Origin: Rickettsiales bacterium
GTDB taxonomy: Bacteria; Pseudomonadota; Alphaproteobacteria; Rickettsiales; UBA998
Assembly: GCA_046348685.1 (NCBI GenBank)
Contig: JAXMDT010000006.1
Span: 2,395 to 66,394 of the forward strand
Direction of reading: 5' to 3'
Length of the DNA: 64,000 bases
In this document: positions 55,179 to 57,497 of the stretch, piece after piece
Layout of the letters: each line of letters starts with the position of its first letter
Numbering within the stretch: position 1 is the stretch's first letter
Notes under the pieces: generated by a model
What the model was told of the DNA's origin: nothing
The model's database searches: none
What the model saw: the letters and a program-made list of their open reading frames with translations, nothing else
Made by a program: the position numbers and the translations under genes

Positions 55179-57497
55179 ATGGTTGTTTCCACCCTCAAGA
55201 AAGAGAATGCACCTGTCACGAACGATGCCGTGACCACCGGCCCGCTACCCGCCTCGAAAAAGGTACATATCCAGAGCGAGCGCATGCCTGAGGTAAAGGT
55301 GGCGATGCGGGAAATCCAGCTCAGCAAGGAAGCAGGGGAGCCGAATCTTACCGTCTATGATCCTTCCGGGCCGTACACCGACGAGAAAGCCACGATCGAT
55401 ATCCGTAAGGGCCTGCCGAGGTTGCGCGACAGCTGGATCCGTGCGCGCGGCGATGTGGAAGACTATGAAGGCCGCGAAATCCTGCCCCAGGACAATGGCT
55501 TTAAGGATTGGCAGTCGGCAAAGCCCGTCGAAGCCTTCCCTAATATCATCCGCCGTCCGCTCCGTGCCAAAAAAGGCCAGGTGGTGACGCAGATGTGGTA
55601 CGCGAAACAGGGCATTATCACGCCGGAGATGGAATATATCGCCATCCGCGAAATGGAAGGCCGCAAGCAATATTTAGAGAAGTGGAAAGCAATGAGCGCC
55701 AGCCCTGAACGCGCGGACAATCAGCACCGCGCCAATCCGCTCGGCGCCATGATGATGCCGGAGATCACAGCGGAATTCGTGCGCAGTGAAGTGGCGCGCG
55801 GGCGTGCGATTATTCCGTCCAACATCAACCATCCGGAAGCCGAGCCGATGATTATCGGGCGGAATTTCAAAGTGAAGATCAACGCGAATATCGGCAACTC
55901 GGCGATCACCTCATCGGTGGCCGAAGAAGTCGATAAGCTCGTATGGGCAATCCGCTGGGGCGGCGATACGGTGATGGACCTTTCAACAGGCCGCAACATT
56001 CACAACATTCGCGAATGGATCATCCGCAATTCGCCGGTGCCGATTGGAACGGTGCCGATCTATCAGGCGCTCGAAAAAGTCGGCGGCGTGGCGGAGGATT
56101 TAACGTGGGAGATTTTCCGCGACACGCTGATTGAGCAGGCGGAGCAGGGCGTCGATTATTTCACGATTCACGCGGGCGTGCGCCTGCCGTTTATTCCGCT
56201 GACCGAAAAACGCGTGACGGGAATCGTCTCGCGCGGCGGCTCGATCCATGCGAAATGGTGCATGGCGCATCACAAGGAAAATTTCGCCTATGAGCATTTC
56301 GAGGAGATTTGTGAGATTGCGCGCGCCTACGATGTCAGCTTCTCGCTCGGAGATGGCCTCCGTCCGGGTTCGATTGCCGATGCGAACGATGCGGCGCAAT
56401 TTGCCGAACTGAAAACGCTGGGTGAGCTGACGCGGGTCGCGTGGGAAAAAGACTGCCAGGTGATGATCGAGGGGCCGGGGCACGTGCCGATGCACCTTAT
56501 CCAGGCGAATATGGAAAAGCAGCTGGAGGCGTGTTATGAGGCGCCGTTCTATACGCTTGGCCCCTTAACCACCGATATCGCGCCGGGCTATGATCATATT
56601 ACCTCGGGCATCGGCGCGGCGATGATCGGCTGGTTCGGCACGGCCATGCTGTGCTACGTGACGCCGAAAGAGCACCTCGGACTGCCGGACCGGAACGATG
56701 TGAAAGTCGGCGTGATTACCTACAAGATCGCGGCGCATGCGGCCGATCTCGCGAAAGGCCACCCGACCTCGCAACTGCGCGACAATGCGCTCTCCCGCGC
56801 GCGGTTCGAGTTCCGCTGGATGGACCAGTTCAACCTCGCGCTCGACCCGGAAACGGCGAAGGATTTCCACGATGAAACCCTGCCGGCAGAAGGCGCAAAG
56901 CACGCGCATTTCTGCTCGATGTGCGGCCCGAAATTCTGCTCGATGAAAATCTCGCAGGAAGTGCGGGATTTTGCGGCAGTAGAAAATTCCCTCTCCACCA
57001 TTGGGGGAGAGGGTCAGGGTGAGGGGGCAAATAAGCGCCAGCTTATTCAGCTCGCCCGAAAACTTCGCAAGGATTCCACCAACGCAGAGCAACTGATGTG
57101 GAATCTGCTGCGCGACCGCCAACTGCTGGGATTGAAATTCCGCCGCCAACATCCGGTGGAGGGCTATATCGCCGATTTTGCCTGCACAGAGCATCAATTG
57201 ATCATAGAACTCGATGGAGGCCAACATAATACCGATGAAGGTAAAGCAGCCGATAGCGAACGCACGGCAGCGCTGAAAGCTAAAGGCTGGAAGGTGCTGC
57301 GCTTCTGGAACAACGATGTACTGCAGAATGTGGAAGGCGTCGTTGTCGAACTATTCAATCAGTGTGCCGCTGACGCGTCCCCCTCATCCCAGCCTTCTCC
57401 CCCAATGGTGGAGAAGGAGCAGGCCGAGCGCGGCATGCAGGAAATGGCCGAGAAGTTTAATAAAGAGGGTGGGGAGATTTACCGGAAGGTTGGGTAA
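55179..57497 (+). CDS. thiC: phosphomethylpyrimidine synthase ThiC carrying an in-frame DUF559 insertion
   Basis: The radical-SAM ThiC core is present throughout, including C-terminal CSMCGPKFC. The ORF is 772 aa against ~630 expected. The extra 143 codons are the 56989-57417 element. Confidence 0.9.
56989..57417 (+). mobile_element. family A element carrying a DUF559 (Vsr-like/PD-(D/E)xK) endonuclease domain, inserted in frame in thiC
   Basis: The 39-bp terminal inverted repeats at 56989-57027 and 57379-57417 match ~33/39. The interior encodes [55 protein letters not shown]...[12 protein letters not shown]. The length is 429 bp, i.e. 143 codons. Confidence 0.85.

What the first reader, a model, noticed from the sequence alone, without database searches (positions are those of the whole stretch)
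56989..57417. DUF559 (Vsr-like endonuclease) cassette with 39-bp terminal inverted repeats inserted in frame inside the essential gene thiC
ThiC here is 772 aa, whereas typical ThiC is ~630 aa. The surplus is exactly 429 bp (143 codons) and begins 15 codons after the C-terminal Fe-S motif CSMCGPKFC. It is bounded by ccctctccaccattgggggagagggtcagggtgaggggg (56989-57027) and an inverted copy at 57379-57417 (~33/39 by hand), and each arm is itself a small hairpin.

The interior encodes a complete DUF559 domain ([30 protein letters not shown]...VLRFWNNDV). No in-frame ATG, GTG or TTG precedes the domain, so it can only be made as part of ThiC. The normal ThiC tail ([22 protein letters not shown]) resumes in frame afterwards.

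So this is a nuclease-carrying, TIR-bounded element that preserves the host reading frame. I know of no description of such a ThiC-DUF559 fusion or of this insertion mode.
Basis: partly seen in the sequence, partly recalled or inferred. Interest (0 to 1): 0.85.

Follow-up and report, generated by a model that had tools for sequence, protein, structure and literature searches.

The report
Nuclease cassette read through inside ThiC
A small nuclease gene bracketed by inverted hairpin repeats sits in frame inside the thiamine-synthesis gene thiC. It belongs to a large, apparently undescribed family of such cassettes found inside many essential and restriction-enzyme genes, and its ends are the long-unexplained bacterial "triplex" repeats.

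Summary
Window 55179-57497 is one 772-aa ThiC ORF. A complete DUF559 (Vsr-like) nuclease domain lies in frame between 40-nt inverted arms at 56988-57028 and 57378-57418, in the variable linker before ThiC's conserved tail.

It is not a one-off. Nearly all of 80 related DUF559 loci carry the same arms. At least 22 of these sit in frame inside host genes: ThiC, HsdM, HsdR, MmeI, HrpA, MutS, NadE and YgiQ. In a 1.84-billion-protein library, 45 of the 150 closest relatives are embedded in larger proteins spanning 47 Pfam families.

The arms are the known PIT/TM "intrastrand triplex" repeat, whose origin is unexplained. I found no paper linking it to DUF559.

Two Rickettsiales-type genomes carry the cassette at the same ThiC site. 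The nuclease is under purifying selection, and the arms keep triple-compensatory changes.

The window holds two further arm pairs without a nuclease, one of them in frame in cysS.

Best reading: a selfish nuclease-plus-repeat partnership that works like REP/RAYT and is tolerated like Rickettsia palindromic elements. Identity and history are well supported; the mobility mechanism is inferred.

The parts
55179..57497 (+). thiC ORF, 772 aa, including the in-frame cassette and the stop codon
   Evidence: matches PDB 3epm over residues 15-601.
56988..57028 (+). Left arm: 5' stem CCCTCTCC (56989-56996), loop, 3' stem GGAGAGGG (57006-57013), mirror 'third strand' GGGTGAGGGGG (57017-57027). Translated as [13 protein letters not shown].
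   Evidence: covariance model, 44.7 bits, E 5e-9; hairpin, z -3.1; mirror rule.
57042..57365 (+). DUF559 / Vsr-like PD-(D/E)XK nuclease domain (ThiC residues 622-729). All 33 family positions conserved at 90% or more are intact.
   Evidence: E 1e-38; PDB 3hrl, E 1e-20.
57378..57418 (-). Right arm, an inverted copy: CCTTCTCC / GGAGAAGG / GGATGAGG. It carries a coordinated triple change (C-G*G to T-A*A) relative to the left arm. Translated as [14 protein letters not shown].
   Evidence: (38.2 bits); sequence read.
57419..57497 (+). Conserved ThiC C-terminal tail ([26 protein letters not shown]) resuming in frame, then the stop codon.
   Evidence: alignment with L001, L002, L004, P0124 and P0147.
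29677..29776 (+). Arm pair without a nuclease, in frame inside cysS (29228..30802). It adds 30 residues (155-184) and splits the catalytic-domain match in two.
   Evidence: (19.8 and 19.1 bits).
5236..5356 (+). Intergenic arm pair without a nuclease, downstream of rnhA. Its left arm shares the T-A*A triple variant with the thiC right arm.
   Evidence: (30.9 bits, E 1e-5, plus a weak partner), (z -5.1).

Best explanation
The segment is one copy of a widespread cassette: a Vsr-like (DUF559, PD-(D/E)XK) nuclease reading frame bracketed by inverted copies of a G/C-rich structured repeat. The repeat is a 9-10-bp hairpin followed by a mirror copy of its G-rich strand, known as the PIT/TM 'intrastrand triplex' motif.

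SHOWN:
- This copy lies in the length-variable linker between ThiC's Fe-S cysteine motif and its conserved tail. It is in frame and has no start codon, promoter-like site or terminator-like site of its own.
- The same site is occupied in two other Rickettsiales-type genomes.
- The nuclease is about as conserved as ThiC itself across saturated synonymous divergence.
- The frame has been kept despite indels.
- The arms keep stem/stem/third-strand compensatory changes.
- Nuclease-free arm pairs occur elsewhere in the same window, including in frame in cysS.
- Relatives of the cassette sit in frame inside dozens of unrelated host proteins.

INFERRED:
- The nuclease is made as part of ThiC.
- The arms, folded as a hairpin or triplex when single-stranded, are the nuclease's cis sites. 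This parallels the relation between REP/REPIN repeats and their RAYT enzyme.
- Nicking at the arms, followed by host replication or repair, copies or moves arm-bounded segments, including nuclease-free pairs acted on in trans.
- In essential genes only insertions that keep the frame and land in tolerant loops survive. There the Gly/Pro/Ser/Glu-rich translation of the arms serves as flexible linkers.
- Residence in an essential gene guarantees expression and blocks loss by imprecise deletion.

I put about 0.9 on the identity and history and about 0.35 on the mechanism.
For: Arms flank DUF559 in nearly all of 80 loci.

In-frame residence is backed by host Pfam domains on both sides in HsdR, MutS, NadE, HrpA, YgiQ and ThiC. 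In the representative library, 45 of the best 150 hits are 300 aa or longer and span 47 families.

The same ThiC site is occupied in L001 and L003.

DUF559 core identity is 70-77% against 76-84% for ThiC, with dS saturated. All conserved residues are kept.

The mirror rule holds in 108 of 111 arms.

Two further arm pairs lie in the window.

Arms within one locus are more alike than arms from different loci, 0.68 against 0.60, with 0 of 2000 random draws reaching that value.

The TGA of GGGTGAGGG is never in frame in 18 embedded copies, but is in frame in 14 of 36 copies with no identified host gene.

No promoter- or terminator-like site lies inside the insert.

The motif forms a stable triplex in vitro and marks unstable loci in E. 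coli (PMC4666352).
Against: - No target-site duplication or other insertion signature was found.
- No near-identical copies were seen, so there is no sign of recent movement.
- DUF559 copies cluster by host gene, and dS is saturated. This points to long immobility or strict site specificity.
- A PD-(D/E)XK nuclease cannot rejoin DNA on its own.
- A few DUF559 loci have weak or no arms (L001 weak; L017, L020, L032, L057, L077).
- Holder et al. could not detect the triplex in vivo.
- No nuclease activity has been shown for any DUF559 protein, as far as I know.
Confidence: 0.55

Rival explanations
1. Homing endonuclease without an intron or intein. The nuclease cuts the uninterrupted allele of the same host gene, and recombinational repair copies the cassette in. 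The arms would be incidental, or only serve as linkers.
For: Vsr-fold homing endonucleases exist: I-Bth0305I is grouped with Vsr and DUF559 in PMC3424549. DUF559 copies cluster by host gene and site. The same ThiC site is used in three genomes, and the same HsdM site in eight loci.
Against: - The sites lie in the least conserved, length-variable linkers, not in conserved motifs. These make poor homing targets.
- Within one DUF559 clade the cassette occupies three different positions in or next to thiC.
- Homing does not explain the nucleotide-level three-way covariation of the arms.
- Homing does not explain the nuclease-free arm pairs.
Confidence: 0.22
2. Exapted relic. A once-mobile cassette is now an immobile, host-serving extra domain of ThiC, and the repeats are decaying leftovers.
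For: The nuclease is under purifying selection, synonymous sites are saturated, the site is shared vertically, and the arms are only 85% complementary.
Against: - No functional link between a DNA nuclease and a radical-SAM pyrimidine synthase is apparent.
- The same domain sits in 47 unrelated host families.
- The arms still obey the stem/stem/mirror rule through a triple substitution inside coding sequence. Selection on a linker peptide does not explain that.
- Related arm pairs lie elsewhere in the same genome.
Confidence: 0.15
3. Invertible segment. The inverted repeats are substrates for a recombinase that flips the segment and switches thiC off and on.
For: 'DUF559 domain-containing protein' is enriched 14-fold among predicted targets of programmed inversion (PMC9881135). 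The inverted repeats are real.
Against: - Inversion would place a stop-filled antisense frame inside thiC (ORF list).
- No ORF with an obvious recombinase sequence is listed in 54000-59000; the flanking ORFs were not scanned against Pfam.
- The enrichment is explained simply by the arms that flank every DUF559 copy.
Confidence: 0.03
4. Intein or intron: the insert is removed from the protein or from the mRNA.
For: It is an in-frame nuclease insert in a conserved protein, which looks superficially like an intein.
Against: - No Hint or intein domain was found.
- The boundaries are N|SLST... and ...VEKE|EQ, with no Cys/Ser/Thr plus His-Asn splice junctions.
- No Rfam intron, or any other RNA family, matches.
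Confidence: 0.02

Closest known systems
REP/REPIN repeats and their RAYT enzyme
   Same: A single nuclease-type gene is flanked by two inverted copies of a short structured repeat. The same repeat is dispersed as singles and inverted pairs in the genome. The gene is vertically inherited and under purifying selection.
   Different: The enzyme is a PD-(D/E)XK Vsr-like nuclease, not an HUH tyrosine transposase. The repeat is a hairpin plus a mirror third strand. The unit is often translated inside host genes, whereas REPs are extragenic. The comparison with RAYT rests on my own knowledge.
Rickettsia palindromic elements (RPEs)
   Same: Palindromic repeats are inserted in frame in unrelated, often essential genes at tolerated positions and are translated with the host protein (PMC10969869). 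The nuclease-free pair in cysS behaves exactly this way.
   Different: RPEs are about 150 bp and encode no enzyme. There is no sequence relationship. The DUF559 cassette adds a folded 110-residue nuclease domain.
PIT / TM_ECO intrastrand-triplex repeats (Hoyne 2000; Holder 2015, PMC4666352)
   Same: The arms are this motif in sequence and in architecture. E. coli carries 23 copies, five of them as inverted pairs.
   Different: They were described as intergenic, not linked to mobile elements, and of unknown origin. Here they bound a nuclease gene and lie inside coding sequence.
Inteins and homing-endonuclease genes, including the Vsr-fold I-Bth0305I
   Same: A selfish nuclease lives in frame in conserved proteins. 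The fold is Vsr-like, and copies group by host gene.
   Different: There are no splicing domain and no intron. The insert stays in the mature protein (inferred). Insertion sites are variable loops, not conserved motifs. Terminal inverted repeats are present.
IS200/IS605-type elements and MITEs
   Same: The ends are hairpin-forming and probably read in single-stranded DNA. Short non-autonomous derivatives exist.
   Different: There is no HUH or DDE transposase, and no target-site duplication was found.

Membership tests
DUF559 / Vsr-like PD-(D/E)XK nuclease (PF04480) | Significant full-length match to the family profile | tested here: met
   E 1e-38, profile 3-108 of 109. PDB 3hrl, E 1e-20.
DUF559 / Vsr-like PD-(D/E)XK nuclease (PF04480) | Conserved motif residues intact (DF..C, E.DG.QH, D..R, RFWN) | tested here: met
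   The window copy does not deviate at any of the 33 columns conserved at 90% or more in 84 sequences.
DUF559 / Vsr-like PD-(D/E)XK nuclease (PF04480) | Nuclease activity | not testable with these tools
   Needs biochemistry.
PIT / TM intrastrand-triplex repeat | C-rich stem, loop, G-rich stem, short loop, then a G-rich segment that mirrors the G-rich stem | tested here: met
   108 of 111 arms obey the mirror rule. Both thiC arms do. The motif sequence matches Table 1 of PMC4666352.
PIT / TM intrastrand-triplex repeat | Triplex actually forms | not testable with these tools
   Formed in vitro for the E. coli motif but was not detected in vivo (PMC4666352).
MITE / TIR transposon | Terminal inverted repeats | tested here: met
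MITE / TIR transposon | Target-site duplication | tested here: inconclusive
   No consistent flanking direct repeat was found. The only exception is a 48-bp duplication in L002. The ends of the arms are uncertain by 1-3 nt.
MITE / TIR transposon | Multiple near-identical copies in one genome | tested here: not met
   The three arm-bearing loci in the window have diverged. The rest of the genome was not available.
Rickettsia palindromic element | In-frame insertion in protein-coding genes that leaves the host ORF open | tested here: met
   thiC and cysS in the window. Other hosts.
Rickettsia palindromic element | Sequence membership in an RPE family | not tested
   No RPE consensus sequences were at hand. 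The arm motif is G/C-rich, unlike the RPEs as I recall them.
Intein | Hint splicing domain with Cys/Ser/Thr at the N-terminal junction and His-Asn plus Cys/Ser/Thr at the C-terminal junction | tested here: not met
   No Hint or intein Pfam hit. The junction residues do not fit.
Group I / II intron | Ribozyme core | tested here: not met
   No Rfam match at E of 1 or less in 54500-58000.
Homing endonuclease gene | Cuts the cassette-free allele of its own insertion site | not testable with these tools
   Indirect evidence is mixed: copies form host-gene-specific clades, but the sites are poorly conserved.
REP-RAYT-like partnership | Enzyme gene flanked by inverted copies of a repeat that is also dispersed in the genome | tested here: met
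   Arms are genome-specific.
REP-RAYT-like partnership | HUH Y1 transposase | tested here: not met
   The enzyme is PD-(D/E)XK. So this works like the partnership but is not a member of it.

The most novel reading that the evidence does not exclude
The PIT/TM 'triplex' repeats of bacteria have been known since 2000 without an origin or a mobility mechanism. On this reading they are the cis-acting ends of a new class of selfish element whose enzyme is the uncharacterised DUF559 Vsr-like nuclease. This class routinely lives as a translated, unspliced insert inside essential and restriction-modification proteins. That would make it a third way, besides inteins and introns, for a nuclease gene to occupy a coding sequence harmlessly.
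Probability: 0.35. Interest if true: 0.9.

Novelty: new variant of a known kind. Interest (0 to 1): 0.8.

Why it matters
1. It gives a concrete, testable candidate enzyme for a widespread repeat family whose origin is unexplained. The family has 23 copies in E. coli K-12 and hundreds in Microcystis and Neisseria (PMC4666352).
2. It gives a first biological context for DUF559, a very large family of unknown function: 26,648 clusters at 50% identity in the library searched.
3. It shows that a folded nuclease domain can be carried, unspliced, inside proteins such as ThiC, MutS, NadE, tRNA synthetases and type I restriction subunits. This matters for protein-insertion tolerance and domain accretion.
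4. It has practical consequences for annotation. In the NCBI record behind L001 only a 185-aa 'endonuclease' gene is on record, and the 763-aa thiC reading frame is not on record as a gene there. Screens for programmed inversions flag DUF559 proteins, probably because of these arms.

Tried and rejected
- Exact and 3-mismatch searches for the arm in the window found only the thiC copy. That result was misleading: a covariance model was needed to find the others.
- Excising each element at its inverted-repeat boundaries and looking for a restored ORF failed. The boundaries are uncertain by 1-2 nt, and high-GC genomes give spurious long ORFs. I therefore could not count out-of-frame or antisense intragenic insertions.
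- The search for target-site duplications and long flanking repeats found nothing general.
- Looking up the exact 772-aa protein found nothing. The window's genome is not in the genome collection; the best match is 72% identical.
- A search with the C-terminal 273 aa found no other called ThiC-DUF559 fusion. The top hits were misassembled ThiC fragments.
- E. coli gave no clean empty site for ycjD, because other phylogroups carry the eefRABCD operon at that position.
- Rfam found no intron and no TPP riboswitch.
- I did not run structure prediction. The Pfam and PDB sequence matches were decisive for the fold, and the tool returns no coordinates with which to measure the distance between the domain's termini.

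Full report
**1. The observation**

The window encodes one uninterrupted 772-aa ORF at 55179-57497. Pfam places ThiC-associated at residues 22-94, the radical-SAM ThiC domain at 137-593 (E 5e-183, essentially full length) and a complete DUF559 domain at 622-729 (E 1e-38). Homology to the solved Caulobacter ThiC (3epm) runs from residue 15 to 601 and stops just before the insert.

The repeat finder reports arms 56988-57027 and 57379-57418, 40 nt and 85% complementary. Each arm is itself a 12-nt hairpin. As single-stranded DNA the arms fold better than shuffles, with z = -2.9 to -3.6.

There is no in-frame ATG, GTG or TTG between the left arm and the domain (sequence). No promoter-like or terminator-like site lies inside the insert. 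The conserved ThiC tail resumes in frame.

**2. It is an insertion**

Close ThiC relatives lack the segment: P0124, P0147, and the thiC genes of L002 and L004. They have instead a short linker of variable length between '...EVRDFA' and 'GM.EMAEKF...GGEIY'. The insert therefore sits in the least constrained part of the protein, after the Fe-S cysteine motif and before a conserved tail.

**3. The same site is occupied in other genomes**

A Rickettsiales MAG (L001) has a 763-aa ThiC ORF with DUF559 in frame at the same linker position. A second Rickettsiales MAG (L003) has the same arrangement up to its contig end.

The window copy reads its right arm in a different frame (SPSSQPSPP) from L001 and L003 (TLTPTLSL). 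Indels have therefore occurred and been compensated so that the tail stays in frame.

Synonymous sites between these genomes are saturated. Even so, the DUF559 core is 70-77% identical, against 76-84% for ThiC. The window copy keeps all 33 residues that are at least 90% conserved in the family. So the nuclease has been under purifying selection for a long time.

Two relatives show other arrangements within the same DUF559 clade:
- In L004 the cassette is in frame 18 codons after the thiC start.
- In L002 it lies just after the thiC stop codon and is followed by a 48-bp duplicate of the thiC 3' end.

**4. The cassette is a widespread unit**

A scan of one genome per species returned 80 loci encoding relatives at 45-72% identity. 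The window's own genome is not among them.

In nearly all of these loci the DUF559 frame is flanked by inverted arms with the consensus CCCTCTCCC-N4-GGGAGAGGG-TT-GGGGTGAGGG.

At least 22 loci lie inside long ORFs whose host domains were identified:
- ThiC C-terminus and N-terminus
- HsdM, seven loci scanned (an eighth, L038, shares the flanking sequence)
- HsdR, three loci
- MmeI-type enzymes, two loci
- HrpA/HrpB helicases, two loci at different sites
- MutS, inside domain III
- NadE, between its two domains
- a YgiQ-type radical-SAM protein
- a ResIII helicase

For most of these, host domains lie on both sides of DUF559 in the same frame.

Independently, an exhaustive HMMER search of 1.84 billion representative proteins found 26,648 clusters at E of 1e-3 or better. 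Of the best 150, 45 are 300 aa or longer with DUF559 mostly internal. These 45 carry 47 Pfam families in all, including the two nuclease families themselves. The host families include HsdS (14 proteins), N6/N4 methylases, class I tRNA synthetases, TrpD, NadE, Sua5, Maf, RsmE, PrmA and RecG. Their consensus shows arm-encoded P.P.G.G.G and PLP.GEG peptides on either side of the domain.

In 18 embedded copies the TGA within GGGTGAGGG is never in the DUF559 frame. In copies with no identified host gene it is in frame in 14 of 36. The open frame is therefore a property of the embedded subset, as expected from selection, not a universal design.

**5. The arms are a known but unexplained repeat**

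A literal search for the motif led to Holder et al. 2015 (PMC4666352). That paper, following Hoyne et al. 2000, describes exactly this sequence as the 'TM_ECO' or PIT intrastrand-triplex motif. Its findings:
- 23 copies in E. coli K-12, five of them as inverted pairs
- present in more than 260 genomes
- forms a stable triplex in vitro, but this was not detected in vivo
- associated with locally unstable regions
- 'not associated with' transposons
- no function known
- the words endonuclease and Vsr do not appear

In my set, 108 of 111 arms obey the rule that the third segment mirrors the G-rich stem.

The window's own right arm differs from the left by three coordinated changes, CCCTCTCC/GGAGAGGG/GGGTGAGG to CCTTCTCC/GGAGAAGG/GGATGAGG. 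That is one base triple, C-G*G, becoming T-A*A, inside coding sequence. The same variant occurs in the intergenic arm at 5236. Selection on a linker peptide does not explain this; selection on nucleic-acid structure does.

**6. More arms in the window**

A covariance model built from the arms and run without filters found five significant matches in the window:
- the two thiC arms
- an intergenic arm at 5236-5275, with a weak, degenerate partner at 5305-5356 downstream of rnhA
- a pair at 29677-29717 / 29737-29776 inside cysS

The cysS pair is in frame. It adds 30 residues relative to E. coli CysS and splits the catalytic-domain match in two.

Nuclease-free arms also occur in frame inside host ORFs of other loci, for example twice more in the HrpA-like ORF of L008. 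Arms from one locus are more alike than arms from different loci, even when more than 700 nt apart (0.68 against 0.60). This indicates within-genome propagation or homogenisation.

**7. How it most likely works**

What is shown is the anatomy, the recurrence, the in-frame state, the selection on the nuclease and on arm structure, and the presence of nuclease-free derivatives.

What I infer is a partnership like REP/RAYT. The nuclease, here made as part of ThiC, recognises the folded arms and nicks there, and host repair or replication does the rest. Insertions in essential genes persist only if they are in frame and in tolerant loops. The Gly/Pro/Ser/Glu-rich arm translation acts as linkers.

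Against a classical transposon: no target duplication was found and there are no recent copies.

For classical homing: copies form host-gene-specific clades. Against it: the sites are poorly conserved, one clade occupies three positions around thiC, and homing gives no role to the arms.

A relic or exaptation reading explains the age of this copy. It does not explain the arm covariation or the breadth of hosts.

Inversion, intein and intron readings are rejected.

**8. Comparison with what is known, and novelty**

The nuclease is a bona fide DUF559/Vsr-fold protein (PDB 3hrl). The arms are bona fide PIT/TM repeats. The cassette works like REP/RAYT and is tolerated like Rickettsia palindromic elements, which a 2024 review still presents as the outstanding case of in-frame repeats and which it does not connect to triplex motifs or endonucleases. 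It resembles inteins only superficially.

Nine full-text searches found no paper that links DUF559 to these repeats or describes the in-frame cassette. The search terms were DUF559, COG2852, ycjD, Vsr-like, intrastrand triplex, palindromic in-frame, and the motif itself. The library does not cover subscription journals, so prior description cannot be excluded.

I rate it a new variant of a known kind (a selfish nuclease-plus-repeat element) and of high interest.

**9. Caveats**

- The DUF559 tree is neighbour-joining on about 110 residues, and host gene is partly confounded with taxon.
- The count of embedded copies is a lower bound, and disruptive insertions could not be counted.
- Translation of the 772-aa protein, nuclease activity and any mobility remain untested.

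Noticed in passing
window 29677-29776 (cysS, 29228..30802 +): A nuclease-free pair of the same arms is inserted in frame in cysteinyl-tRNA synthetase. It adds 30 residues (155-184) and splits the catalytic-domain Pfam match in two.
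   Followed up: yes
window 5236-5356: An intergenic, nuclease-free arm pair lies between a Gly/Trp/His-rich ORF (4569-5228) and rnhA (5370-5801, minus strand). The right arm has an extra small hairpin between the stem and the third strand.
   Followed up: partly
L002 3960-4007 and 4478-4525: In a syntenic relative, thiC is intact and the cassette sits after its stop codon. The cassette is bracketed by a 48-bp direct duplication (43 of 48 identical) of the thiC 3' end, so the DUF559 ORF ends with a second copy of the ThiC tail. It is the only locus of 71 with such a flanking duplication, and its origin is unexplained.
   Followed up: partly
L001 2698-2770: The ThiC of this Rickettsiales MAG carries a second in-frame palindromic insert of a different kind (GTCATTGCGAG...CTCGCGATGAC, peptide LSLRGAEGDAAIQNGSPRFARDDG) in the N-terminal half. 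One protein therefore carries two translated repeat elements.
   Followed up: partly
L001 (NCBI GCA_041396965.1), 2267-4558: Only a 185-aa 'endonuclease domain-containing protein' starting at the Met of CSMKISQ is on record as a gene here. No thiC gene is on record, although the 763-aa frame is open. Gene callers evidently mishandle these inserts.
   Followed up: partly
L083 (E. coli K-12, ycjD, record 1351407-1351760 and downstream): E. coli's DUF559 gene ycjD ends inside a degenerate arm. It is followed by a partial duplicate of its own 3' end and a full TM_ECO motif. The gene is single-copy and present in 3378 of 5426 complete genomes. It occupies the sapF-fabI site where other phylogroups carry the eefRABCD operon (PMC12817139).
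   Followed up: partly
L007, L025, L037, L045, L074; also L022, L028, L029, L036, L041, L043, L064, L076, L080, L082: Two variant arm architectures occur. Some cassettes have doubled (nested) arms on each side, with inverted repeats up to 114 nt. Others have an extra hairpin inserted between the stem and the GGGTGAGGG segment. In each cassette the variant is shared by both arms.
   Followed up: no
window 55082-55178; L001-L004 upstream of thiC: No TPP riboswitch is detected upstream of thiC in the window or in the four related loci, although thiC is commonly riboswitch-controlled.
   Followed up: partly
window 58478-58762: A small GIY-YIG nuclease gene (94 aa) lies two genes downstream of thiC. 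The order thiC, hypothetical gene, GIY-YIG gene is conserved in L002.
   Followed up: no
window 57535-57610: Just after thiC there is a GC-rich stretch, possibly hairpin-forming, containing CTCGCAATG. This is the reverse complement of the core of the palindromic element seen in L001's ThiC. It may be another repeat family.
   Followed up: no
window 30001-32000: GC content drops to 0.41, against about 0.53 elsewhere. The drop begins in the 3' part of cysS, whose C-terminal region also carries Asn/Glu/Lys-rich extra residues relative to E. coli.
   Followed up: no
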